Shown here piece by piece: positions 13,084 through 39,561 of a DNA stretch of 64,000 nt. The position numbers and the translations under genes were made by a program. The notes beneath the pieces were generated by a model. It worked only from the letters and a program-made list of their open reading frames with translations. It ran no database searches and was not told the DNA's origin. Origin of the DNA: a virus; the IMG/VR virus record IMGVR_UViG_3300022555_000009, one strand, 5' to 3'. Each line of letters starts with the position of its first letter. The stretch's first letter is position 1.

Positions 13084-14373
13084 ATGAACGAAGACCTTAA
13101 AATTCTCGCTAGGTTCGTGGATGAGGTGAATAAGACCAACTCCTCGAACGAGAAGATCGAGATCCTGCAAAAGTACGAATCCCTCCGGAGGATGTTCAGG
13201 TACGTTTACGACGAGCAGATTCAGTTCGGCGTGACGAGCAAGAATGTCAAGAAGCAAGGTATCTGCAACCGTGTACGGTATAAGGATATTTACGCTCTTC
13301 TTGACGATCTCGCTTCAGGCGAGCTCTCTGGGCACGATGCTCTTGGTCAGGTCAACGGATTCATCGAGGCGAACGGCTTTGCCGATTTGATCTATTGCAT
13401 TCTCGACAAGGACCTCAAGACTCGGACAGGATCTACCCTCATCAACAAGGCTCTTCCCGACTGCATTCCTACTTTCGACGTCGCTCTCGCGCATGTGTAC
13501 GAGGACCGCGCTAAGAAGGTGTTTTTCGGAAAGGAGCCTTGGTACGCGTCGAGGAAGATGGACGGACTCAGGCTCATCACGATCGTAGACAAGCACTCCA
13601 ACGCCAAATTCTTTTCAAGGACAGGCAAGGAGTTTCTTACTCTGTCCAAGATTGCAGCCGAGATTAAGAAGTCCGGAATTATTGATATCGTTTTCGACGG
13701 CGAGCTCTGCATGGTCGATTCCGACGGTATGGAGACCTTTAAGGGCATCATTAAGGAAGCCCGACAGAAAGACCACACCATCGAAAATCCCATGTACATG
13801 ATCTTCGACTGCCTCGATCCCGAGGACTTCTGGTCGAAGAACGGCAAGCAGGTCCTCTCTGAGAGGTACCATGTTCTACAGGCCTTCATGGCTGGGAGGA
13901 CCTTCAAGCATATAAAGAAGGTTGAGCAGACCCTTGTGCGAGATAATGCTCACTTTGAGGAGCTTCGCAAGACTGCCCTCGCCAACCATTGGGAGGGCCT
14001 GGTTATTAGGAAGAACGTCGGATACGAAGGTAAGAGGACCAACAATCTTCTCAAGGCTAAGTACTTTCAGGATACTGAATTGCGTGTCAAGGGAATCATC
14101 ACTGGTCCTTTCCGCATCATCAATAAGGAGACGGGCCTCGAGGACTCTATTACGACCCTGTCCGCAGTTGTTGTGGACTACAAGGGCTTCGAGGTCAACG
14201 TCGGATCCGGCTTTACCCTGGCCGAGAGAAACGAGTTTTATTGGAATCCTAAGTCGATCGTCGGCAAGATGATTAATGTTAGGTACTTCGGTGAGACCAC
14301 TAATGATAAGGGAACGCTTAGTTTGCTGTTCCCTACCTACTGGGGTCTCTATGGCGATGAAAGGGATGTATGA
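13084..14373 (+). CDS. lig: ATP-dependent DNA ligase
   Basis: KMDGLR, FDGEL, EGLVIR, LLKAK and VGSGF motifs. Confidence 0.93.
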   Translation: MNEDLKILARFVDEVNKTNSSNEKIEILQKYESLRRMFRYVYDEQIQFGVTSKNVKKQGICNRVRYKDIYALLDDLASGELSGHDALGQVNGFIEANGFADLIYCILDKDLKTRTGSTLINKALPDCIPTFDVALAHVYEDRAKKVFFGKEPWYASRKMDGLRLITIVDKHSNAKFFSRTGKEFLTLSKIAAEIKKSGIIDIVFDGELCMVDSDGMETFKGIIKEARQKDHTIENPMYMIFDCLDPEDFWSKNGKQVLSERYHVLQAFMAGRTFKHIKKVEQTLVRDNAHFEELRKTALANHWEGLVIRKNVGYEGKRTNNLLKAKYFQDTELRVKGIITGPFRIINKETGLEDSITTLSAVVVDYKGFEVNVGSGFTLAERNEFYWNPKSIVGKMINVRYFGETTNDKGTLSLLFPTYWGLYGDERDV

Positions 14374-14547
14374 AGAAACGAACTAAAGAGGAAATGCTGG
14401 CAGCCGCAGTCTCTAATTCCGAGCGGCGCAGAATAGAGAGGCAAGTTCCTGACGACTCGTGTGCCACGTGCGATGAGTCCGTCGATGGATCTCCCTCTGC
14501 CTCTTGTGTTGGGCAGTGTGCAAAAAGATAAGTGAGGGTAGTATATC

Positions 14548-14937
14548 TTGAGCAAGCTCATTCTAGTCCGAGGTTTGCCGGGCAGCGGGAAGTCCACTTG
14601 GGTCCGCACTAATTTCCCAGGGATATTCCATCTCGAAGCCGACATGTTTTTTATGAAGAACGGCATGTACTTTTTCGAGAAGTCCAAGCTTGCCCAGAAT
14701 CACCTGACCTTACAGCGCATTGCAAAGATGATCTTAGATGAAGGCGCGGATGTCGTTATTTCCAACACATTCGTACATACCTGGGAAATCACAAGCATAA
14801 TCTACCACCCTTCTGTCACGGAATCCGTAGTCTATAGGATGACTTCAATGTACGGCACTACACACGGAGTGCCTGAGGAAACCGTTACTCGAATGAAGGC
14901 TCAGATGGAAGATTGGCCCGGAGAGATACTCATATGA
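14548..14937 (+). CDS. AAA_33 / polynucleotide-kinase-like P-loop protein
   Basis: RGLPGSGKST, EAD, VISNT and HGVP motifs. Confidence 0.8.
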   Translation: MSKLILVRGLPGSGKSTWVRTNFPGIFHLEADMFFMKNGMYFFEKSKLAQNHLTLQRIAKMILDEGADVVISNTFVHTWEITSIIYHPSVTESVVYRMTSMYGTTHGVPEETVTRMKAQMEDWPGEILI

Positions 14938-24454: not shown

Positions 24455-24571
24455 CGGGTGGTGGCCCAGCGGTAGAGGCGGAAGTTATAAAAATGTGTCT
24501 CGTTCAGTAGACATTAACCGCAGCATAAAATAAGGAACTTCTAGTCGTAGGTTCGAATCCTACCTGCCCGG
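24455..24571 (+). tRNA. tRNA interrupted by a ~44-nt hairpin element; spliced anticodon probably AAG (Leu)
   Basis: CGGGTGG/CTGCCCG acceptor, GAAGT/ACTTC anticodon stem with a 51-nt loop; removing 24487-24530 leaves TT-AAG-GA. Confidence 0.7.
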
Positions 24572-24575
24572 CCTA

Positions 24576-24633
24576 TAGACACTTGCAGCAATCAAATAAA
24601 AACAAATCTGTAAAATTTGAAAAAGCGTGTCTA
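24576..24633 (+). ncRNA. Permuted hairpin element enclosing an isolated Tyr(GTA) anticodon stem-loop
   Basis: TAGACAC..CAGCAA..[CAAAT-CTGTAAA-ATTTG]-AAAAA..GTGTCTA. Confidence 0.65.
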
Positions 24634-24655
24634 GTTTTTAAAGTAAGGAGTACAT

Positions 24656-24826
24656 ATGGGAATTGGTGATATGGTTAAACTGAAGAGCGGTGGGCCTAAT
24701 ATGGTGGTGGTATCCTCAATAACCAGAGATGGCTTATGCTGGGTCACAACTAATTGGTTTGGGAAAGATTCAGACGTTAATGTTTACGAAGATTCCTTCC
24801 CAGTAGACTGTCTTTATACTCCATAA
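24656..24826 (+). CDS. YodC / DUF2158 family protein
   Basis: GDMVKLKSGGPNMVV...WF motif; TAAGGAG RBS. Confidence 0.75.
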   Translation: MGIGDMVKLKSGGPNMVVVSSITRDGLCWVTTNWFGKDSDVNVYEDSFPVDCLYTP

Positions 24827-24832
24827 GATTAC

Positions 24833-24905
24833 GGCGTCGTAGCCCAAAGGCAGAGGCAATGGACTTAAAATCCATACAGTTTGGGTTCGAGTCCCAATGG
24901 CGCTA
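24833..24905 (+). tRNA. tRNA-Leu(TAA), short variable loop
   Basis: Cloverleaf; CT-TAA-AA loop. Confidence 0.85.
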
Positions 24906-24909
24906 TTGT

Positions 24910-24982
24910 GGCTTCTTAGCCCAAAGGCAGAGGCGATAGTTTCAAAAACTATACAGTCTGGGTTCGAGTCCCAGAGGAGCTA
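24910..24982 (+). tRNA. tRNA-Leu(CAA), short variable loop
   Basis: Cloverleaf; TT-CAA-AA loop. Confidence 0.85.
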
Positions 24983-25020
24983 TTTTTAGCGGTTCCGTCA
25001 GAAGATGATTGTTGTAAAAC

Positions 25021-25105
25021 GACCCCCGTTCTGGACATCGGTCTTCTAAACCGATTCCATTAAATAGTTCAGCGGAGGTGTGAGGTTCAACTCCTCCGGG
25101 GGCCA
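25021..25105 (+). tRNA. Atypical D-arm-less tRNA-Arg(TCT)
   Basis: Acceptor, ATCGGT-CTTCTAA-ACCGAT arm and T-arm present; no D-arm; long variable region. Confidence 0.6.
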
Positions 25106-25180
25106 TCGAGAGTAAATGAAATTAGGGTTCGAGTCCCTTCGAAATCACTGAGAACTAATTACATTACAAAAGGAATACTA

Positions 25181-25771
25181 TTGAAGAAATTCACCTGTGT
25201 TTTCGTATTGATCTTTGCGTTATGTAATGGTTATGCAGCTCCGTTCTTTCCTGATTTTCAATGGCCCATGGGAAACGGATATGGTAATGATGTAAAGATA
25301 ACTAGTCCTTTCGGTTACAGAAGCGATGTCTTTTTACCTGGTCAAGGCGGCGATGATAGCTCAATGCACTTCGCCTTAGACATGATTCCGAAGGATGGAT
25401 CGTATAAAGTAGTACCTATCCTGGCAGCTTACGACGGTACAGCAGTTGATGTGTACCCTGCACCAGGCGGCAAGTTTAGAGGTCATCCCACTTTCGGTGG
25501 ATGTGTACTTCTGAAGCATGATTTGGGTATTGTAGATGGTAAGCATATATATGCATACACCTTCTATGCTCATATGAAAGAAGTAGATATTTCTACGAAA
25601 GAGAAAGTTAAGAAAGGCGAACTTATAGGAGTTATGGGTAGTACTGGTAAGTCTGACGGAGCTCACTTACATTTTGAGATCAGGTTTGATCCACGGAATT
25701 TCCTGCAGGTTACCTCGCCTCCTAAAATATTCATGACATGCACGTCTCTTATACAGTTTAATAGGAAATGA
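25181..25771 (+). CDS. M23 family peptidase with signal peptide (endolysin-like)
   Basis: ITSPFGYR, HFALD, YAHM and GSTGKSDGAHLHFE motifs. Confidence 0.88.
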   Translation: MKKFTCVFVLIFALCNGYAAPFFPDFQWPMGNGYGNDVKITSPFGYRSDVFLPGQGGDDSSMHFALDMIPKDGSYKVVPILAAYDGTAVDVYPAPGGKFRGHPTFGGCVLLKHDLGIVDGKHIYAYTFYAHMKEVDISTKEKVKKGELIGVMGSTGKSDGAHLHFEIRFDPRNFLQVTSPPKIFMTCTSLIQFNRK

Positions 25772-25772
25772 A

Positions 25773-25967
25773 ATGGATGAAGTGAAAGATGTACCTATTG
25801 TACCCCCTAAAGAAGAGAAGGTAACGTACACCGTCTTAGGATCGACAGGTCTTTTCAGAGAGGAAGGTATTGTCAATGAGCGATGGACTTATAATGGAAT
25901 GACTTTAGTATCCTTTAAAAATAAATCTATTGTGGTGAATTCTGATATTTGCGTTCCTGTAGAGTAA
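25773..25967 (+). CDS. Hypothetical protein
   Basis: ORF directly after the M23 gene. Confidence 0.45.
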   Translation: MDEVKDVPIVPPKEEKVTYTVLGSTGLFREEGIVNERWTYNGMTLVSFKNKSIVVNSDICVPVE

Positions 25968-25973
25968 TTACAA

Positions 25974-26044
25974 TCTTCCTTAGATCAATGGTAGATCGCA
26001 GGCCTTTGGATCCTGCTACGCTTGTTCGATTCAGGCAGGGAGAA
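25974..26044 (+). tRNA. tRNA-Gln(TTG)
   Basis: Cloverleaf; CT-TTG-GA loop. Confidence 0.8.
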
Positions 26045-26058
26045 TTAGCTATTTTCGA

Positions 26059-26289
26059 TGTTCTGTAGCTCAACTGGAAGACCAGAGACTTCGAGTCTCA
26101 CTTAGTCTGATCCAATTAAGAGAAATCAATCCTCGTTCGTATAAAAGTGGTACAAGGGTCTCTGAAACCCTAGGAGGTTGGTCAGTACAACCACGGGGAA
26201 TAAATTGAACTTCGCCGAAAAGTAACTACCAATTATAGTAGAGGTTCAATATGAAATGTTTGAAGTTAGGTTCAAGCCCTAGCAGGACA
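26059..26289 (+). pseudogene. Split tRNA-Arg(TCG): 5' part 26059-26100 and T-arm/acceptor 26262-26289, with tRNA-Gln nested inside
   Basis: TGTTCTG/CAGGACA acceptor halves about 220 nt apart. Confidence 0.6.
26130..26200 (+). tRNA. tRNA-Gln(CTG)
   Basis: TCCTCGT/ACGGGGA acceptor; CT-CTG-AA loop; atypical T-loop. Confidence 0.75.
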
Positions 26290-26297
26290 ATCAACAT

Positions 26298-26370
26298 CTA
26301 GATGTAGCTCAGTTGGTAGAGCGGGTGGTTTGGGACCATCAGGTCGGAGGTTCGACCCCTCTTATCTAGA
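26298..26370 (+). tRNA. tRNA-Pro(TGG)
   Basis: Cloverleaf; TT-TGG-GA loop. Confidence 0.9.
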
Positions 26371-26396
26371 CTAAGTATTTATATGAGGGTAGAGTT

Positions 26397-26735
26397 GTGA
26401 TTATAAGAAAATTCTTGTTAGGAGCAGAGAAAGAGGGAGTTGCCTTAGCCAGCGGCATCAGTGATTTTATCACTGGTCTTGAGTCGACCCCTGGAGTCAA
26501 GGTTCTTGAAAAGACGACTAAGCATATCGTCGTGGCTTTAGAAGCCAACATCGATATTATTTCTTCGCGGGCGCCTTTTCAGAAGGCATTCGATGACTTG
26601 GAAGCTAAGGTCAAGAAAGACATCGAGGCTTTAGGTAACGTTACTGTGAGGGACGTTGTGGACTTTGACATTAACGTGGTGAAGCGTCTGTACTTGTTCG
26701 TCAAAAAGGTAGTCCAGAAGATTTTTAAAAAGTAA
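26397..26735 (+). CDS. Hypothetical protein
   Basis: ACTAAGTA motif and GAGG RBS upstream. Confidence 0.55.
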   Translation: MIIRKFLLGAEKEGVALASGISDFITGLESTPGVKVLEKTTKHIVVALEANIDIISSRAPFQKAFDDLEAKVKKDIEALGNVTVRDVVDFDINVVKRLYLFVKKVVQKIFKK

Positions 26736-26745
26736 AGTCCAATAT

Positions 26746-26859
26746 TAAGACACCTACAGCATAAAAGTTCCGGTTTCGGAAAGTAGCTCAGCAGGTAGAG
26801 CACAGGACCTCCATAAGTACTGGGTCGTTGGTTCGAATCCAACCTAAAAAGGTGTCTTG
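26746..26859 (+). tRNA. Circularly permuted tRNA (anticodon loop contains CAT/CCA) inside a permuted hairpin element
   Basis: 3' acceptor piece TTCCG-G precedes 5' CGGAAAG; gene body ends at CCAAC-CT; flanked by TAAGACACC/GGTGTCTTG. Confidence 0.7.
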
Positions 26860-26878
26860 AATTTAAATCGAAAAATAT

Positions 26879-26920
26879 TTGCCACGGATCTATCATATAA
26901 TCTTATATGATATACATAAG
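26879..26920 (+). promoter_or_regulatory. Putative early promoter variant
   Basis: TTGCCAC-N-CTTATATGATATACATAAG. Confidence 0.5.
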
Positions 26921-27084
26921 AGTGGGAAAGCACACTAATTAAACATGGGAGGAGAAAGTACAATGAAAAAGTCCGAGACTATAGTCACAGCAACTAATAC
27001 AAGTTTCTCTTTCTGGGCCAATCATAATAAAGGATGGGTGTCTACGGATATAGCATGATAATATTTCATGTACAGACCGAAGAC

Positions 27085-27111
27085 ACCAGAGACTAAAATC
27101 TCTGGTTTTTT
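27085..27111 (+). terminator. Rho-independent terminator
   Basis: ACCAGAGA/TCTCTGGT hairpin followed by a T-run. Confidence 0.6.
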
Positions 27112-27114
27112 AAT

Positions 27115-27187
27115 GGGCTTATAGTATAACGGCATATTATGGTAGCCTTGCAAGCTTCAGATCAGAGTTCGACTCTCTGTAGGTCCA
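27115..27187 (+). tRNA. tRNA-Ala(TGC)
   Basis: G3-U70 pair; CT-TGC-AA loop. Confidence 0.85.
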
Positions 27188-27196
27188 CTTTTTCAT

Positions 27197-27270
27197 TTCA
27201 CAGTAGTTCAGCTGGAAGTAACGTCTGACTGTTAATCAGAAGGTCCCTGGTTCGATCCCAGGCTGTGGAG
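27197..27270 (+). tRNA. tRNA-Asn(GTT)
   Basis: Cloverleaf; CT-GTT-AA loop. Confidence 0.9.
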
Positions 27271-27281
27271 CTCTTTTTTTT

Positions 27282-27357
27282 GCGAGCATATCCCCTCACT
27301 CTGATAAGGTGTTGAAAGGGTAGTTGGCGCAGGGAGGTTCAATTCCTCCGGCTCGCA
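27282..27357 (+). tRNA. Atypical D-arm-less tRNA-Ile(GAT)
   Basis: GCGAGC/GCTCGC acceptor, CACT-CTGATAA-GGTG arm, TAGTTGG in the variable region, T-arm. Confidence 0.6.
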
Positions 27358-27400
27358 TCAGGGAGGTAAGCGGGCACGTACGGGCAGCGCACTCCCGCAT

Positions 27401-27471
27401 AGGCCTTTGGTGAAATGGTATCACTTCGGTTTCCAAGTCCGACGTTGTGGGTTCGATTCCTACAAGACCTG
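27401..27471 (+). tRNA. tRNA-Trp(CCA)
   Basis: Cloverleaf; TT-CCA-AG loop. Confidence 0.8.
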
Positions 27472-27486
27472 TCTCAGTTTTTCATC

Positions 27487-27557
27487 GCCAGATTAGTATA
27501 GTGGCATTACGAGTGACTTGTAATCTTTAAACAGGGGTTCGATTCCTCTATCTGGCT
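27487..27557 (+). tRNA. tRNA-Thr(TGT)
   Basis: Cloverleaf; CT-TGT-AA loop. Confidence 0.8.
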
Positions 27558-27565
27558 TCTTCATT

Positions 27566-27640
27566 GCTCGGTTCGCCTAGCGGCTATGGCACCACCCCTA
27601 CAAGATGGCAATACCGGAGGTTCGAGTCCTCCACCGAGCA
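27566..27640 (+). tRNA. tRNA-Val(TAC)
   Basis: Cloverleaf; CC-TAC-AA loop. Confidence 0.8.
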
Positions 27641-27883
27641 CTACGAGAGGGATTATAAATGGACATTGAAGAGATCCGAAACTTTATAGATAGGTACGAA
27701 GCAGGCCTTGTCGACGCTGCTGACTTTGTTGATAATTGTAATGAAATAATTGATGTGTTTAAAAGATATATTGATTTATACGCAGCAACACATAGCTAAT
27801 AAAAGGTAGGTATAGGAAATGGTAATTTTCCGATTAGGTAAACGCCCTAGAAAAGCAATCGTTAAGCGACCTTAAATTCTAGG

Positions 27884-27932
27884 GCCTATTACGGATAGCA
27901 TGGTCGAATCCAGAAGACTTTTAATCTTCCAC
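27884..27932 (+). pseudogene. Truncated tRNA-Lys(TTT), no T-arm
   Basis: GGAT/ATCC D-stem and GAAGA-CTTTTAA-TCTTC arm, then runs into an RNA-ligase fragment. Confidence 0.55.
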
Positions 27933-28031
27933 AAACGAAAATTAGCAACGGTCCAGGTAATCAAGACCGTGGAACCTATTGAAAATGCTGACAGCATTGT
28001 TAAGCTCACCTTTGAAAGCATGGGTTGATCT
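27933..28031 (+). pseudogene. Dead 5' fragment of the RNA ligase gene
   Basis: KRKLATVQVIKTVEPIENADSIVKLTFESMG*S aligns with KRKLATIQSIDKVIPIEGADNIVKITFKNIGWS of 28828. Confidence 0.85.
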
Positions 28032-28087
28032 TTTCTCGGTCTCCTACTAATTGGTTAGAGATTGATACCAATTTAGCAGGAGACATA

Positions 28088-28819
28088 ATGTATAACATTC
28101 TTTATGAAACTACGAATTTAGCAAATAACAAGATCTACATTGGGGTTCATTGTACAGATGACCTCGAAGATGGATATTTCGGCTCTGGCACCGTGTTACG
28201 ACGCGCCATAAAAAAGTATGGCTTAGCTTCTTTCAAAAGACGAATTTTGGAACAATTTGAAACTATCGAAGCTGCGTTTGTTAGAGAAGCAGAAATTGTA
28301 AATATGTCTTTTCTTGCAAGAAAGGATATCTACAATATTCGATTGGGCGGGGACGGAGGGGATTATCTCGGGTGGCTCAGAACTGCAGACCCTCAAAAAT
28401 ATGAGAATATACGACAAAAGCTTAGAGAGGCTGCTCCTAAAACAAAATCAGAAGCTCACAAACGAGCAATCAGCAAAAGTAAAAAGGGTAAGCCGAGAAC
28501 TTGGAAGACAAGAGGTAACACAGGGAACAAGCATAGCGAAGAATTCAAAGCATGGCAAGCAGAGAGAACTAAAAATAGAAGATGGTATACAAACGGAATA
28601 GACAATCTCTATTTATGGCTTTCGGATATCCCTCCTGAAGGTTTCTATCCCGGTAGAAAAGTAACTTGGGATCACCCAAGCCCGCCGTCGAGCAAGGGGA
28701 TACCGAAATCAGAAGAATCAAAAAAGAAGTTGTCCGAAACACGAAAAGCAAAACATATCGTGCCAGGTAATAAGGGAAAAAAGAAGATAATTATAGATGG
28801 TGAAATCCACTATCTATAG
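28088..28819 (+). mobile_element. GIY-YIG (Seg-like) homing endonuclease with NUMOD3-like repeats
   Basis: ILYETTNLANNKIYIG.H......GYFGSG; KHSEE/KSEESKKK repeats; AGGAG RBS and ACTAATT upstream. Confidence 0.88.
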
Positions 28820-28827
28820 GAGAAGGT

Positions 28828-29874
28828 ATGAGTGAAATAAAAAGAAAGCTGGCGACAATTCAAAGTATTGACAAGGTGATTCCAATTGAAGGAGCGGACA
28901 ATATCGTCAAGATTACCTTCAAGAATATCGGATGGTCTTGCGTAACTAATAAAAATTCCAATCCATATGAAGGGAAACAAGTAGTATATCTGGAAGTCGA
29001 TTCCGTTCTCCCTCTTACGAATTCCGCTTTCGCTTTCATGGAGCCTTATCACTATCGCGTTAAGACTATTAAGCTTCGAGGCCAGGTTAGTCAGGGACTT
29101 ACTTTGCCTCTGTCGGATTTCGTTGGAATGTTAACAAACTTCGACCTCGAGGAAGGATATGACCTCACTGATGCACTTGGAATCATTAAATACGAAGCGC
29201 CAGAGCCTGGTCAGCCAGGTATGTGCAAGGGGTCTTTCCCCGGATTCATTATAAAGACAGATGAGGAAAGGGCTCAGAATCTGGGTAACAAGACTATAGA
29301 GAGACTTCTTGCTGAGCATGAATTCGACGCCACTGTTAAGATGGACGGAACAAGCGTCACCTTCTATATCAATGGTATTACAGACGACCCTACTTCCGGA
29401 GAGTTCGGTGTCTGTAGTAGGAATCAGGAACTAAAAAATACAGAAGGAAACGTGTACTGGGGAATGGCTCGTAAATACAACATCGAGGAGCGCCTTCGGG
29501 GCTTGGGCCGAAATCTTGCTATTCAAGGAGAAGTTGCAGGCCCTGGAATTCAGGCTAATAGAGCTAAGCTTAAAGAAGTACAGTTATTTGTTTTTACTGT
29601 CCAGGATATTGATAAGACAACGAGATTCAGCAACGACGAAATTGAACGAATTCTTACCACGATGAATGAATTTGCTGATGGGGAAGAACTTAAGATGGTC
29701 CCTAGGCTAGCAGTACCAACCCTGGCTACCCTTGATGACATTGCGACCCTCGCAGAAGGCACCTGTGTCGTATCTGATTCTATCCGAGAGGGAGTTGTAT
29801 TGCGGGCTAAGGATGACGCAAGTATTAGCTTTAAATTCATTAATCCGAAATATCTCTTGAAACACGATCTATAA
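28828..29874 (+). CDS. ATP-dependent RNA ligase (DRB0094 / Rnl2-like family)
   Basis: N-terminal RKLATIQ..IEGAD OB-like module; KMDGTS, IQGE, EGVV and SFKFIN motifs. Confidence 0.9.
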   Translation: MSEIKRKLATIQSIDKVIPIEGADNIVKITFKNIGWSCVTNKNSNPYEGKQVVYLEVDSVLPLTNSAFAFMEPYHYRVKTIKLRGQVSQGLTLPLSDFVGMLTNFDLEEGYDLTDALGIIKYEAPEPGQPGMCKGSFPGFIIKTDEERAQNLGNKTIERLLAEHEFDATVKMDGTSVTFYINGITDDPTSGEFGVCSRNQELKNTEGNVYWGMARKYNIEERLRGLGRNLAIQGEVAGPGIQANRAKLKEVQLFVFTVQDIDKTTRFSNDEIERILTTMNEFADGEELKMVPRLAVPTLATLDDIATLAEGTCVVSDSIREGVVLRAKDDASISFKFINPKYLLKHDL

Positions 29875-30557
29875 TATAAGAGAATAAAAAACAGCAAGAG
29901 CCGAGCTAAAGCGAGGAAGTCGGTTGTTAATCCTAGTGCTAGCCTAGGTTGAGACGCGGATGTGGGCGGAAGTAGACTTGCAAGGCTTAGCGGCTGAACA
30001 AGACTCATACCCAATTCATAAGACGGTGCATTGCCGCGTCAAAAAGAGAATCTATCCGATAGGGATCAAGGAGCACCTCTTTTCAAGTTCTCTCTTCATA
30101 AGGAACGAAAATGGCTATCATATTTATTCTTTTAGGGATACTTGCTTTTGGGATTTTTTGTGCGGTATTCTTTTCGTGCTTATCTGATGGCTGGTCTGCG
30201 GGAGAGATAGTCGGCGTAATTTTTGTTTCATTTTTTGCATAGCACTACTTCTAGTTCCTCTTATTCGTAATGGAGAAGTTCGATCTATAGATAACAGAAC
30301 TATAACTACCGATTACTACGAGGGAATAAAGTATAGCAAGCCTGTGATAATTCGTACCACCAGGATTAATCACCATTGGTGGACTTACGCTGCCTTATCT
30401 GATAACCAGACCCAGACTTATGAAGTGGATGTAGGTAAGTAAAATGCCTGAGTATCCTTTCGGAGTTTTCGTGCTCCTCGTGTGTCTACTTCCTCTCACT
30501 ATTTGGAAGATAATAGAGATCATCATTTATATGTGTTCTCACATAAGGATTATATAA

Positions 30558-30776
30558 ATGGGTCACTACGATAGTTCATACGCTTCAGATGACTACAGAG
30601 AATTGTCAAAGAAAGGCAAATCAGAACTTCATAAGTCCTTCCGCGCAGAACTTAAAGAGCAGGGTTGTGTTTGGGGTACTTATGATGATGTACACGGGAT
30701 AGCTTTAGCTCACTGGGCTGAAGAGAAAGGATATAGAATAGAAGGAACTCATACATTTTTAGTATACAAAAAATAA
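30558..30776 (+). CDS. Hypothetical protein
   Basis: TAAGGA RBS. Confidence 0.45.
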   Translation: MGHYDSSYASDDYRELSKKGKSELHKSFRAELKEQGCVWGTYDDVHGIALAHWAEEKGYRIEGTHTFLVYKK

Positions 30777-30782
30777 AATTAC

Positions 30783-30854
30783 GTGGAGATGGTGTAACTG
30801 GTAGCACCTCTGATTGAAGGTCAGACTGTCCGGGTTCGAGTCCCGTTCTCCGCA
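30783..30854 (+). tRNA. tRNA-Phe(GAA)
   Basis: Cloverleaf; TT-GAA-GG loop. Confidence 0.85.
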
Positions 30855-30856
30855 AT

Positions 30857-30926
30857 GTGTCATTAGCTCAGTGGTAGAGCGCTTGACTGTGAATCAAGAG
30901 ACAAGGGTTCGATCCCCAATGACACC
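30857..30926 (+). tRNA. tRNA-His(GTG)
   Basis: Cloverleaf; CT-GTG-AA loop; C discriminator. Confidence 0.85.
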
Positions 30927-30994
30927 CTGAAAAAAAGGAGAACACGATGTATTAGGTTTGAAAAAGATATAGAAATTATACCAATATACAACAC

Positions 30995-31071
30995 AGGAGC
31001 CTAGCTCATCGTAGGTCAGTAGCGCAATCCTTATAAGGTTGATGTGCCGAGTTCAAGCCTCGGGGCTCCTA
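30995..31071 (+). tRNA. tRNA-Ile(TAT)
   Basis: AGGAGCC/GGCTCCT acceptor; CT-TAT-AA loop. Confidence 0.8.
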
Positions 31072-31072
31072 T

Positions 31073-31188
31073 TGAACGATAGCTCAGTGGGTAGAGCACG
31101 AAAAAATTAGGTCTTGACAAGACCTAAACTGCAATCCAAAATTAGCCTATTAAGCTCGTGGTCGTGGGTTCGAATCCCACTCGTTCAA
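31073..31188 (+). tRNA. tRNA-Asn(ATT) interrupted by a 43-nt hairpin element in the anticodon stem
   Basis: Removing 31102-31144 restores CGAGC-CTATTAA-GCTCG and a full cloverleaf. Confidence 0.75.
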
Positions 31189-31376
31189 AGTGGGGTCTTG
31201 TTTTACGCGTCATTACGAAGAATTTGTCAGAATAGAAGGTTCGACAGTAAAGCGAAAGCTTTTCATTCTCTCCGTAAAAGAAGCATGATATGCGTAATGA
31301 CGCTTTTGAAAATGGAAGGGTCGGATAATGGTATTCCAGTAGATTGACTTCTGGTATTCCATCAGACTAATTATAT

Positions 31377-32000
31377 ATGAATTGTCGATACTGTGGAAGA
31401 GAGTGTAAGAATCCTAATAGTTTACGTAACCATGAAAGGTTATGTAAGTCTAATCTAAATAGGCAGCAAACTAAAGGGAACGTGGGGGGAGTTCCTTGGA
31501 ACAAAGGACTTACGATAGCCTCTTCGGAAAAACTTAAATTCCTTAGTGAAAGACTTTCGTTAAAATATAAGAATCAAGAACTTCAACCCTCCTTTAAAGG
31601 GAAAACACATACGGTGGCTTATAAGGTTCGTATGTCGGATCTTATCAAAAGTAGGTACGAGGATGGATGGCAACCCAAAGCTGGCCGATGTAAGAAAATT
31701 AAGTATGAAAGCTCAATTGCGGGGTCAATAAGTGTGGATGGTACCTGGGAGTTGGCAACAGCAAAGTACCTTGATACCCTTGGGGTTCAGTGGATCAGAA
31801 ACACAAAGAGATTTGATTATGTTGATGATGTAGGAGTAAGCAGAAAATACACTCCCGACTTCTATGTGAAAGATTGGAGTTCTTACCTCGAAGTAAAAGG
31901 GTATGAGACTGATCTGGATAGAGCTAAGTGGAGGGGTTTTCCAGAGAAGCTTATTATCTGGAAAGAGAGAGAATTGAGAAACTTAAATATATTGGAATAG
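31377..32000 (+). mobile_element. PD-(D/E)xK homing-endonuclease-like gene
   Basis: C2HC Zn finger, PWNKGL / FKGKTHT NUMOD-like motifs, YTPDF...YLEVKG nuclease core. Confidence 0.8.
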
Positions 32001-32078
32001 AGAAGCATTGGGGAAATGCACGAACCCGCTAAGTTCGAGGCTGGGCAACCGGCAGTGGATCGTAACCACCTTATTCCG
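31994..32078 (+). tRNA. tRNA-Ser(GCT), divergent, nested inside the split tRNA-Ser
   Basis: GGAATAG/TTATTCC-G acceptor, CGAAC-CCGCTAA-GTTCG arm, GCTGG-GCAA-CCGGC variable arm. Confidence 0.7.
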
Positions 32079-32179
32079 GCGCAACAGCAGTGGGGCATAC
32101 GAGTTCGAGTCTCGTTCCTTCCGTAATTTAACAATATATTAATTCATGACCTTATATTAATAATGATATAGGAGTTACC

Positions 32180-38637: not shown

Positions 38638-39108
38638 ATGAGTGATACAATTGAGACTACAAGGAATTGGATTGTCGATCGAGATACTTATCTTACGATG
38701 CGTCAAGACCAAATAGCAATCATGGACGACGCCAGGCATAATACCCTGACGGATATATACACGGGCCTTCTCCATACTTGGATGATCTCTCAGTCCGCTC
38801 AAGTAGTGAGATTCATAGAAGGATCCAGGGGTGAAAATCCTCGTTACGCAGATTATCTTGCGAAATATAAGGCGTGGGGAGAGCTGCGACCTAAGCAACC
38901 AATTTTTCTTGGTTGGCCTAGAGAGATGAACATTGTCTACTCTATTATCAGAGGCAAGCCTTACGAAAAGATTGAAGCAAAGGTTAGAGAGCATAACGGT
39001 CCTTCACGGTATGGATTGAAAAAACTCTGTGAATATTACAAGATTGACTACGCCGCTATTGAGGCCCAGATTCAACTAGTGTTTGATTCGCGGAGCCAAG
39101 AATGGTAA
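38638..39108 (+). CDS. Hypothetical protein
   Basis: AAGGAGG RBS; YSIIRGKPYEKIE motif. Confidence 0.6.
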   Translation: MSDTIETTRNWIVDRDTYLTMRQDQIAIMDDARHNTLTDIYTGLLHTWMISQSAQVVRFIEGSRGENPRYADYLAKYKAWGELRPKQPIFLGWPREMNIVYSIIRGKPYEKIEAKVREHNGPSRYGLKKLCEYYKIDYAAIEAQIQLVFDSRSQEW

Positions 39109-39458
39109 AGCAACTGATAGTAGTCAATATGGCTGTACCGATGGGGTTCTCTCAGCTTACGGTACAAATAGCTCACGCTTCTATGCTAGGCATATTACAT
39201 CAGGGATCTTGGGACGACGGTACATTTTGGCTCCAAGCAGATGATAACCCAGAGCTGCAAACTTGGCTCAAAGATCACTTTACATTGATTGTCTGTAAGG
39301 TTTGGGCTAAAGAAGCCATTATGAAGCTTAAAGAGGAAGCGGAGAGCTTAGGTTTAGCTACAGCGGTTATGGAAGACTACGGTATGGTAACTGCTTTATC
39401 AATAGGACCAGCAGAAGAAGATAAGCTAAAATCATTTAAGAGACTGACATTGCTCTGA
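39102..39458 (+). CDS. pth2: Peptidyl-tRNA hydrolase, Pth2 type
   Basis: KQLIVV, QIAHAS, W.....LIV and TALSIGP...LTLL motifs. Confidence 0.8.
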   Translation: MVKQLIVVNMAVPMGFSQLTVQIAHASMLGILHQGSWDDGTFWLQADDNPELQTWLKDHFTLIVCKVWAKEAIMKLKEEAESLGLATAVMEDYGMVTALSIGPAEEDKLKSFKRLTLL

Positions 39459-39489
39459 AAGAATAGGGGGTTCATCAGAACCCCCTCCT

Positions 39490-39560
39490 GTATCCATAGC
39501 CTAGTGGCAAGGTGGGGATCTCTAAAATCCCACACGCGGGTCCGATTCCCGCTGGATGCA
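39490..39560 (+). tRNA. Amber suppressor tRNA (anticodon CTA)
   Basis: GTATCCA/TGGATGC acceptor; GGGAT-CTCTAAA-ATCCC arm. Confidence 0.8.
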
Positions 39561-39561
39561 T

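What the first reader, a model, noticed from the sequence alone, without database searches (positions are those of the whole stretch)
24455..31188. Family of ~45-nt A5-hairpin-C(A/T)GCA elements that interrupt or permute tRNAs: candidate new tRNA splicing/circularisation system
Seen: four copies of one motif, AAAAA-(0-2 nt)-helix ending GTCT / AGAC helix partner-short spacer-C(A/T)GCA(A/T)-A-rich tail. Two are linear insertions in tRNAs: 24487-24530 in an anticodon loop and 31102-31144 in the 5' strand of an anticodon stem. Deleting them restores clean cloverleaves. Two are permuted (AGAC half first, GTCT half last): 26746-26859 around a permuted tRNA and 24576-24633 around a bare anticodon stem-loop. 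The helix covaries (GTGTCT/AGACAC, GGTGTCT/AGACACC, TAGGTCT/AGACCTA). Known: too small for group I/II introns, and no archaeal bulge-helix-bulge is evident. Inference: insertion at different tRNA positions and in both topologies implies the element defines its own cut/join sites, either as a small ribozyme or as the target of a phage nuclease plus ligase; an Rnl2-like ligase lies in the same array at 28828.
Basis: partly seen in the sequence, partly recalled or inferred. Interest (0 to 1): 0.93.

Follow-up and report, generated by a model that had tools for sequence, protein, structure and literature searches.

The report
Ro60-type RNA handle on phage tRNAs
The four repeats are real members of a widespread, uncatalogued phage RNA module (a short helix plus ACNGCAA), but the evidence favours a kept protein-docking handle that turns tRNA pieces into tRNA mimics, not a new kind of intron.

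Summary
All four copies exist as described. ARAGORN restores two tRNAs once the inserts are removed. The third gene is a circularly permuted tRNA, and the fourth copy encloses a bare 17-nt anticodon hairpin.

They belong to a large family: a 6-9 bp covarying helix followed by ACNGCAA. I found it only inside tRNA arrays of large phages, in both topologies. Members include the KVP40 "pseudo-tRNAs", GAP32/CBB-size phages and many IMG/VR contigs. No Rfam family, BHB motif, ribozyme or EndA matches.

Splicing is not the best reading.
- Nine of nine other sizeable phages with the element encode DUF2828, whose model folds like Ro60.
- Phages with a different insert class instead carry TROVE Ro60, mostly with RtcB.
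- Carrier tRNA bodies often have non-decoding anticodon loops.
- Distances from the element to the junctions vary.
- Stem-closed copies have the architecture of Y RNAs and dictyostelid Class I RNAs.

The most likely function is a kept protein-docking handle on tRNA mimics.

One oddity remains. This phage's record has no DUF2828 or TROVE gene, but it has an Rnl5 nick-sealing ligase in the array. Splicing stays possible at about 25%.

The scan met this handle before on other DNA. I re-tested its main claims here.

The parts
24455..24573 (+). tRNA-shaped gene carrying copy A in its anticodon loop
   Evidence: ARAGORN -i calls tRNA(aag) i(33,44). Rfam tRNA scores 36.9 bits. Several splice frames fit.
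24487..24530 (+). Copy A of the handle: A-rich linker, helix GTGTCT/AGACAT with an 8-nt loop, CCGCAGCAT, A-rich tail
   Evidence: Sequence. Model R2 gives only 9.5 bits, E 8. It resembles the L020/L023 anticodon-loop copies that begin TATAAAA-(A)GTGTG.
24576..24633 (+). Copy B: stem-closed handle RNA (AGACAC...GTGTCT) with GCAGCAAT next to the 5' stem strand. Its cargo is a 17-nt anticodon-stem-loop mimic (loop CTGTAAA, GTA) at 24603-24619.
   Evidence: Sequence. The MFE fold shows the closing stem, z -2.6. It aligns with the same unit in nt-1, D482, D479 and L023 (A7).
26746..26859 (+). Copy C: stem-closed handle around a circularly permuted tRNA body. The acceptor stem is capped by G-TTT and the handle enters at 67/68.
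   Evidence: The junction CT+TTCCG complements CGGAAAG. Rfam tRNA covers model positions 6-65 at 26782-26845. The MFE shows a 10-11 bp closing helix, z -4.4.
31072..31189 (+). tRNA-shaped gene (Lys/Asn-type body, loop CTATTAA) carrying copy D between positions 28 and 29 of the anticodon stem
   Evidence: ARAGORN -i calls i(33,43). It is 75% identical over 117 nt to KVP40-like 'Pseudo-3' genes. It is included in the 9-phage alignment A6.
31101..31143 (+). Copy D of the handle: AAAAAAT, helix TTAGGTCT/AGACCTAA, A, CTGCAAT, CCAAAATT
   Evidence: Model R2, trained only on other phages, gives 26.7 bits, E 3.5e-4 over the whole window with filters off. The nearest relative is the L027 insert.
28828..29874 (+). 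ATP-dependent nick-sealing RNA ligase, Rnl5 (NgrRnl/DraRnl) type, inside the tRNA array
   Evidence: Pfam RNA_ligase plus PHA02142 OB domain. Full-length match to the Naegleria gruberi RNA ligase 5cot, E 4e-51. The KMDG motif is readable. It is the only PF09414 hit in the genome.
28025..28819 (+). GIY-YIG homing endonuclease directly upstream of the ligase. It is context and probably not part of the system.
   Evidence: PHROG 314 homing endonuclease, E 3e-41. Homologues lie in other phage tRNA arrays, L007 and L019.

Best explanation
The four elements are copies of a conserved RNA 'handle'. It is a 6-9 bp helix with single-stranded (A)C-N-G-C-A-(A/U) directly 3' of it and an A-rich strand 5' of it.

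In the stem-closed layout (copies B and C) the helix joins the two ends of a small RNA, and the cargo sits inside. The cargo is a 17-nt tyrosine-type anticodon hairpin in B and a capped tRNA body in C. In the grafted layout (copies A and D) the same handle is a side arm in the anticodon arm of a complete tRNA shape.

I think these RNAs are made from the tRNA operon and are kept unspliced. They would act as tRNA mimics whose handle docks a Ro60-type ring protein, as Y RNAs dock Ro60. In other phages that protein is DUF2828. Here it is not encoded in the held record, so it may be supplied by the host, lost or replaced.

The displayed anticodon arms would then serve one of two purposes. They could act as bait or blockers for host tRNA-cutting enzymes, or they could bring broken tRNAs to the Rnl5 ligase for resealing.

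Shown here: family membership, RNA-level structure, restriction to tRNA arrays, co-occurrence with a Ro60-fold protein elsewhere, and the ligase type.

Inferred: binding, absence of splicing, and the decoy or repair role.
For: 1. The family is real.
- KVP40-like copies align without gaps.
- In 21 copies from at least 8 phages the 7-bp helix is 98.6% paired, with compensatory changes at all 7 pairs and many G-U pairs.
- The covariation score is 1.10 against 0.30 in shuffles, 0/500.
- C, G, C and A of the motif are invariant.

2. Copy D is a member by a model trained elsewhere (26.7 bits, E 3.5e-4).

3. In whole genomes of KVP40, D479, two phages of 359-378 kb and G007, every model hit lies in the tRNA array.

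4. DUF2828 (PF11443) is found in 9 of 9 other sizeable phages with the element and in 0 of 5 phages with other insert classes.
- In G007 it lies 0.5 kb from the elements.
- In G001 and G002 it is adjacent to the RNA ligase.

5. A DUF2828 model (pLDDT 70.8) has Ro60/TROVE structures, at full length, as 12 of its 13 best listed PDB matches. These include phage phiLo Ro60, Deinococcus Rsr and human and frog Ro60, E 1.5e-8 to 8.6e-5.

6. Phages with the other insert class carry TROVE Ro60 (5/5) and RtcB (4/5) instead. This is the known Rsr/Y-RNA/RtcB partnership, named from my own knowledge.

7. Stem-closed copies with 17-nt anticodon-hairpin cargo recur in three other lineages: Lys UUU, Gln UUG and Ser UGA. 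These cannot be tRNA exons.

8. Of 21 carrier tRNA bodies, 8 allow no canonical 7-nt U33 anticodon loop. Several others have A34. This fits mimics, not decoders.

9. There is no conserved intron-exon helix and no fixed distance to the junctions.

10. The architecture matches dictyostelid Class I RNAs. Those have a 6-bp stem joining the ends and an 11-nt motif next to the 5' stem strand, with C, C, A, A fixed at positions 6, 9, 10 and 11 (PMC7919456).
Against: - This phage's 170.6-kb record has direct terminal repeats, but CheckV rates it 71% complete. It shows no DUF2828 or TROVE gene by Pfam six-frame search. A phage-specific HMM at maximum sensitivity and profile comparison of all 43 ORFs of 330-900 aa also found none. 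It is the one exception among ten phages.
- Removing the inserts gives perfect cloverleaves. The acceptor stems covary across nine phages, as expected for working tRNAs.
- Several carrier tRNAs elsewhere have fully canonical Lys, Asn or Arg loops.
- A nick-sealing ligase in the array is just what exon joining in a stem would need.
- Binding of DUF2828 to the handle is untested.
- My sample of phages is small and partly related.
Confidence: 0.5

Rival explanations
1. True RNA introns and permuted genes. An unidentified protein endonuclease, from host or phage, recognises the helix plus ACNGCAA and cuts at both junctions. The Rnl5 ligase seals the resulting nick in the anticodon or acceptor stem. 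For copy C this circularises the cargo, which RNase P and RNase Z then open into a tRNA.
For: - Exact restoration of cloverleaves.
- The CT+TTCCG junction of copy C.
- Covarying acceptor stems.
- The insertion sites 28/29 and 67/68 lie in duplexes, the substrate of Rnl5 and Rnl2 nick sealing (PMC4408790).
- Phages with the element carry ATP-dependent ligases and never RtcB.
- This phage has the ligase inside the array and no Ro60-like gene.
Against: - No nuclease candidate is shared between the arrays.
- No EndA, RtcB or Rnl1 is present.
- There is no BHB or other conserved intron-exon pairing.
- Linker and tail lengths vary.
- The hairpin-only cargos cannot yield tRNAs.
- Many carrier bodies have non-decoding loops.
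- The ligase link is equally explained by a Ro60-type repair module.
Confidence: 0.25
2. A processing signal only. Host RNases cut beside the helix and release the cargo without any ligation, for example a free 17-nt anticodon hairpin decoy. The grafted copies would give two-piece tRNAs.
For: AU-rich single strands flank the helix on both sides. The units sit in inter-tRNA spacers of polycistronic arrays.
Against: It does not explain the invariant C-N-G-C-A motif, or the DUF2828 co-occurrence. It also does not explain why complete tRNA bodies are kept intact.
Confidence: 0.1
3. A small self-cleaving or self-splicing ribozyme of about 45 nt.
For: A conserved unpaired motif lies next to a helix. 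The motif lies 6-20 nt upstream of the 3' junction.
Against: - No match to any Rfam ribozyme family at E up to 5.
- There is only one helix.
- The loop is dispensable, since it is opened in the stem-closed copies.
- ATP-dependent ligases need 3'-OH and 5'-PO4 ends, which small nucleolytic ribozymes do not make (established chemistry).
Confidence: 0.05
4. A DNA-level selfish element or recombination scar in decaying tRNA pseudogenes.
For: The same element sits at several positions and in rearranged order. Homing endonucleases lie in the array. KVP40 annotates its copies as pseudo-tRNAs.
Against: - All copies lie on the tRNA sense strand.
- The helix keeps G-U pairs, which would be A-C on the other strand.
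- Exon stems covary.
- No insert-free allele appears in DNA contigs of four runs from two studies. Contigs can miss rare variants.
Confidence: 0.07

Closest known systems
Ro60/Rsr with Y RNAs, especially bacterial and phage YrlA (Rfam RF02553; Chen et al. 2014, cited from my own knowledge and from earlier scan notes, not read here)
   Same: A helix that joins the RNA ends serves as a protein dock, next to a tRNA-like module with a capped acceptor stem. The genes sit beside RNA ligases. The partner in other phages has the Ro60 fold.
   Different: - The motif is ACNGCAA. The YrlA model does not score here; the best hit is 29.8 bits on a tRNA part in KVP40, with a cut-off of 69.
- The partner is DUF2828, not TROVE.
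- The handle can be grafted into a complete tRNA, or hold only an anticodon hairpin.
- This phage encodes no Ro60-type protein.
Dictyostelid Class I RNAs (PMC7919456)
   Same: They are 42-65 nt long. A 6-bp covarying stem joins the ends. A conserved unpaired 11-nt motif lies next to the 5' stem strand, with C, C, A, A fixed at positions 6, 9, 10 and 11. The remainder is variable. Copy B is 58 nt with this layout.
   Different: They are eukaryotic, carry no tRNA cargo, and their known binder is an RRM protein. The paper's text does not print the motif letters, and I recall CCUUACAGCAA only from memory.
Archaeal and eukaryal protein-spliced tRNA introns, split tRNAs and permuted tRNA genes (BHB motif, EndA/TSEN, RtcB)
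   Same: Inserts occur at several tRNA positions, and there is a permuted gene whose flanks pair.
   Different: There is no bulge-helix-bulge, no EndA and no RtcB. The setting is bacterial viruses.
KVP40 tRNA-Pseudo-3/4/5 and the 'enigmatic' tRNA introns of Lak megaphages (10.1101/356790)
   Same: The KVP40 pseudo-tRNAs are members of this very family. Lak phages were reported to have unexplained small tRNA inserts.
   Different: Neither source describes the motif, the stem-closed forms or a protein partner. I did not test whether the Lak inserts belong to this class or to the second class.

Membership tests
Helix + ACNGCAA handle family (defined here; models R1 and R2) | Covarying 6-9 bp helix | tested here: met
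   GTGTCT/AGACAT, AGACAC/GTGTCT, AGACACC/GGTGTCT and TTAGGTCT/AGACCTAA. Family covariation is shown.
Helix + ACNGCAA handle family (defined here; models R1 and R2) | C-N-G-C-A(-A/U) lying 1-6 nt 3' of the helix | tested here: met
   CAGCAT, CAGCAA, CAGCAT and CTGCAA in copies A-D.
Helix + ACNGCAA handle family (defined here; models R1 and R2) | Significant score with a covariance model trained on other phages | tested here: inconclusive
   Copy D scores 26.7 bits, E 3.5e-4. Copy A scores 9.5 bits, E 8. Copies B and C are permuted, so the model cannot score them.
Helix + ACNGCAA handle family (defined here; models R1 and R2) | Lies in a phage tRNA array on the tRNA strand | tested here: met
Ro60-type RNP (Y-RNA-like, DUF2828 branch) | A Ro60-fold protein (DUF2828 or TROVE) encoded in the same genome | tested here: not met
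   None in the held record of this phage. Present in 9/9 other phages with the element.
Ro60-type RNP (Y-RNA-like, DUF2828 branch) | The RNA stays unspliced and binds the protein | not testable with these tools
   No RNA run holds the window.
YrlA (Rfam RF02553) | Score at or above the gathering cut-off | tested here: not met
   No YrlA hit in the window at E up to 5.
BHB-dependent tRNA introns and permuted tRNAs | Bulge-helix-bulge at both junctions | tested here: not met
   The RNAalifold consensus of 9 pre-tRNAs shows only the cloverleaf and the insert hairpin.
BHB-dependent tRNA introns and permuted tRNAs | EndA endonuclease and RtcB ligase | tested here: not met
   PF01974 and PF01139 are absent from this genome. 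The host was not examined.
Group I introns in tRNA genes | A P1-P9 core of about 200 nt or more | tested here: not met
   The inserts are 43-44 nt and there is no Intron_gpI hit.
Known small self-cleaving ribozymes | Match to an Rfam ribozyme model | tested here: not met
   None at E up to 5 in 20-46 kb of the window, and none at E up to 1 in L003, L027, L030 and L045.
Rnl5 nick-sealing RNA ligases (for ORF 28828-29874) | N-terminal OB domain plus nucleotidyltransferase domain, homologous to NgrRnl over the full length, with KxDG | tested here: met
   KMDG is read. The activity itself was not tested.

The most novel reading that the evidence does not exclude
In this phage, which has the handle and an Rnl5 ligase but no Ro60-type gene, the handle marks real RNA cut-and-join sites. 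That would be a protein-dependent tRNA splicing and circularisation pathway in bacterial viruses, with permuted tRNA genes. It would give Rnl5 and Rnl2 ligases their long-sought natural substrate.
Probability: 0.22. Interest if true: 0.95.

Novelty: new variant of a known kind. Interest (0 to 1): 0.7.

Why it matters
If the handle reading holds, large phages of many lineages carry a second, undescribed branch of the Ro60/Y-RNA system. It would have its own RNA signature and a DUF2828 partner. It would display whole tRNA bodies or bare anticodon hairpins of Lys, Asn, Tyr, Gln and Ser types, which (from my own knowledge) are among the usual targets of host anticodon nucleases.

That would give a testable function to three things:
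- DUF2828 proteins;
- the 'pseudo-tRNAs' annotated in the KVP40 genome record;
- perhaps dictyostelid Class I RNAs.

It also ties nick-sealing RNA ligases (Rnl5 and Rnl2), whose physiological role is still called uncharted (PMC5397189), to tRNA-centred conflict.

This window adds an informative exception: a phage with the RNAs and the ligase but without the protein.

If the inserts are instead spliced, it would be the first non-group-I tRNA splicing system and the first permuted tRNA genes known to me in bacterial viruses.

Tried and rejected
- No RNA holder is listed for the window, so expression and splicing could not be examined.
- DNA contigs of four lake or freshwater runs show no insert-free allele. 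The listed joints are cross-matches between tRNAs.
- The loose motif count (9 against 4.3 expected) and a loose composite pattern (5 against 2.0) were not significant. Only the specific pattern was.
- Model R1, trained on KVP40-like copies only, was too narrow: copy D scored 15.3 bits. Its best hit elsewhere in this genome is a terminator.
- T4 rnaC and rnaD show no such motif by eye.
- The ligase found no close relatives in IMG/VR by peptide patterns.
- tblastn of all ORFs of this phage against 40 array loci found only two homing endonucleases and one ligase shared. No common nuclease emerged.
- The tRNA-anchored pattern in 596 Gb of cellular genomes gave 102 hits. That is at or below my rough chance estimate of about 500. 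Of the 80 loci fetched, one is an interrupted tRNA, and it belongs to the other insert class.
- A small AAA_33 kinase next to the DNA ligase is not followed by a recognisable 3'-phosphatase.
- A profile of DUF2828 against PDB sequences gave only insignificant TROVE hits, E 0.8. The fold search was needed.
- Literature searches found no description of the element.
- The KVP40 genome paper was not held.
- I considered RNase P, RNase Z, RNase E, RNase III and flap-endonuclease models for the cuts and dropped them, because none places cuts at all observed junction types.

Full report
**The observation.** The window is part of a 170.6-kb lake or freshwater phage record with direct terminal repeats. 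It holds a tRNA array of about 30 genes. The four copies are present at the stated coordinates.

ARAGORN in intron mode calls a tRNA with a 44-nt insert at 24455-24573 and one with a 43-nt insert at 31072-31189. Copy C is a permuted gene. Its order is AGACACC, TA, CAGCAT, AAAAG, then TTCCG-G, TTT, CGGAAAG, the D, anticodon and T arms, CT, then AAAAA and GGTGTCT. Joining CT to TTCCG gives the exact complement of CGGAAAG. Copy B encloses only CAAAT-CTGTAAA-ATTTG.

A specific composite pattern finds exactly these four sites against a mean of 0.03 in shuffles. Looser patterns are not significant. Predicted folds show the closing helix for B and C and the side hairpin for D, with z-scores of -2.6, -4.4 and -3.3. 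Copy A is not better than shuffles.

**A large family.** BLAST of copy D hit a 110-nt 'tRNA' in KVP40-like vibriophages at 75% identity over the whole gene, insert included. Those phages have three to five such genes. In KVP40 they are annotated tRNA-Pseudo-3, -4 and -5.

Their inserts align without gaps:
- a 7-bp helix closed by U-A with a GNNA loop;
- three nucleotides;
- then C-N-G-C-A, which is invariant.

A tRNA-anchored pattern scan of IMG/VR gave 31 loci, most of them real interrupted Lys/Asn-type tRNAs in phages of up to 422 kb.

Twenty-one copies from at least eight phages give 98.6% pairing, compensatory changes at all seven pairs and many G-U pairs. A model built from them, with no window sequence, scores copy D at 26.7 bits (E 3.5e-4) on the whole window with filters off. 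Copy A scores 9.5 bits.

In five whole phage genomes every hit lies in the tRNA array. The same pattern in 596 Gb of cellular genomes gave a hit count at or below my chance estimate, and one interrupted tRNA of another class. Rfam has no family for the element.

**Both topologies recur.** Stem-closed copies exist in other lineages:
- a 17-nt anticodon-hairpin cargo with loop AUUUUAA (Lys) in nt-1, VS1 and TCU-VP04;
- loop AUUUGAA (Gln) in D482 and D479;
- loop CUUGAAA (Ser) in L023 and L024;
- a permuted tRNA-like cargo with a capped acceptor stem in D482 and VS1, whose acceptor pairs covary;
- a plain hairpin cargo in KVP40.

Copy B aligns with these units (A7).

**Testing the splicing reading.** The 28828 gene is a full-length homologue of the Naegleria nick-sealing ligase, so it belongs to the Rnl5 family (PMC4408790, PMC5397189). 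The genome has no RtcB, Rnl1 or EndA.

Phages with this element carry ATP-dependent ligases and never RtcB. That first looked like support for exon sealing. Four findings count against it:
- RNAalifold on nine homologous pre-tRNAs shows only the cloverleaf and the insert hairpin. There is no BHB or other intron-exon helix.
- The linker is 4-15 nt and the tail 6-20 nt.
- No candidate nuclease is shared between arrays.
- Eight of 21 carrier bodies cannot form a canonical 7-nt U33 loop, and others have A34. In the window the loops are ATT, AAG or ATA, and an 8-nt loop.

**The lead that changed my reading.** Earlier notes of this scan on other genomes describe a 'hairpin + ACAGCAA' handle beside a Ro60-like DUF2828 protein. 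I tested this.
- PF11443 is present in 9 of 9 other sizeable phages with the element: KVP40, D479, G001, G002 and G004-G008.
- It is absent from the five phages with other insert classes.
- Those five carry TROVE Ro60 instead, and four of them carry RtcB.
- In G007 DUF2828 lies 0.5 kb from the elements. In G001 and G002 it is adjacent to the ligase.
- An AlphaFold model of a DUF2828 protein (pLDDT 70.8, pTM 0.62) has Ro60/TROVE structures as 12 of its 13 best listed PDB matches, aligned at full length, ahead of vWA/MIDAS domains. TM-scores are low (0.26-0.41), so the fold assignment is good but not tight.

The stem-closed layout also equals that of dictyostelid Class I RNAs (PMC7919456).

**The exception.** This phage shows no DUF2828 or TROVE gene by four tests:
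- Pfam six-frame search;
- a phage-specific HMM with filters off;
- profile comparison of all 43 ORFs of 330-900 aa.

CheckV rates the record 71% complete although it has terminal repeats. The partner may therefore be missing from the record, supplied by the host, or absent.

**Verdict.** The element is real, conserved at the RNA level and specific to phage tRNA arrays. The best-supported reading (about 0.5) is a kept Ro60-type docking handle on tRNA mimics and anticodon-hairpin RNAs, linked to RNA repair or counter-defence. Splicing and circularisation remain a live rival (about 0.25). That rival is somewhat stronger here than elsewhere, because the protein is missing and a nick-sealing ligase sits in the array. 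Ribozyme, processing-only and DNA-element readings are minor.

Noticed in passing
L016, L018, L028, L030, L037, L039, L040, L043, L044, L065 (other phages): A second class of 55-60-nt tRNA inserts has two helices with a CCC-GCAA-GGG hairpin and ends in TTACTTA. It sits at the same 28/29 site and elsewhere. The four phages of this class that I tested carry TROVE Ro60 and RtcB, and carry neither DUF2828 nor a PF09414 ligase.
   Followed up: partly
window 26059-26290: A tRNA-like gene has complementary acceptor strands TGTTCTG (26059-65) and CAGGACA (about 26284-90). They are separated by about 150 nt that contain a second tRNA-like fold (about 26136-26205). ARAGORN finds tRNAs after many internal deletions.
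   Followed up: partly
window 31313-32124: A tRNA (Ser/Sec-like by ARAGORN) is interrupted by 721 nt that hold an endonuclease ORF (31377-32000; PHROG endonuclease/resolvase; homologue in L039). ACAGCA occurs at 32084-32089, just before the 3' tRNA part.
   Followed up: partly
window 25020-25105: A tRNA-like gene has a 6-bp anticodon stem and loop CTTCTAA. It matches only the Rfam tRNA-Sec model, below the cut-off (27.4 bits).
   Followed up: no
window 39102-39561: A PTH2 peptidyl-tRNA hydrolase gene (39102-39458) lies directly upstream of a tRNA with the amber-reading anticodon CTA (39489-39561).
   Followed up: no
window 24833-24983: Two tRNAs with the Leu anticodons TAA and CAA are only 73-75 nt long and have no long variable arm.
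   Followed up: no
window 13084-14937: An ATP-dependent DNA ligase (13084-14373) is followed by a small P-loop AAA_33 kinase (14548-14937; weak match to polynucleotide kinase). No recognisable 3'-phosphatase follows.
   Followed up: partly
L006 9166-9764 (Vibrio phage D479): A tRNA-Ile-like gene is interrupted by 522 nt that contain an HNH endonuclease ORF. The insert starts with a long perfect hairpin.
   Followed up: no
G001 105133-106803 and G002 101360-103603: In the 359-kb and 378-kb phages the PF09414 RNA ligase and the DUF2828 gene are adjacent. This recalls the Rsr-RtcB pairing in bacteria.
   Followed up: partly
L022 1788-1864, L035 1704-1772: A truncated 5' half of a tRNA is followed at once by a complete related tRNA. 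This looks like a partial tandem duplication and not an insert.
   Followed up: no
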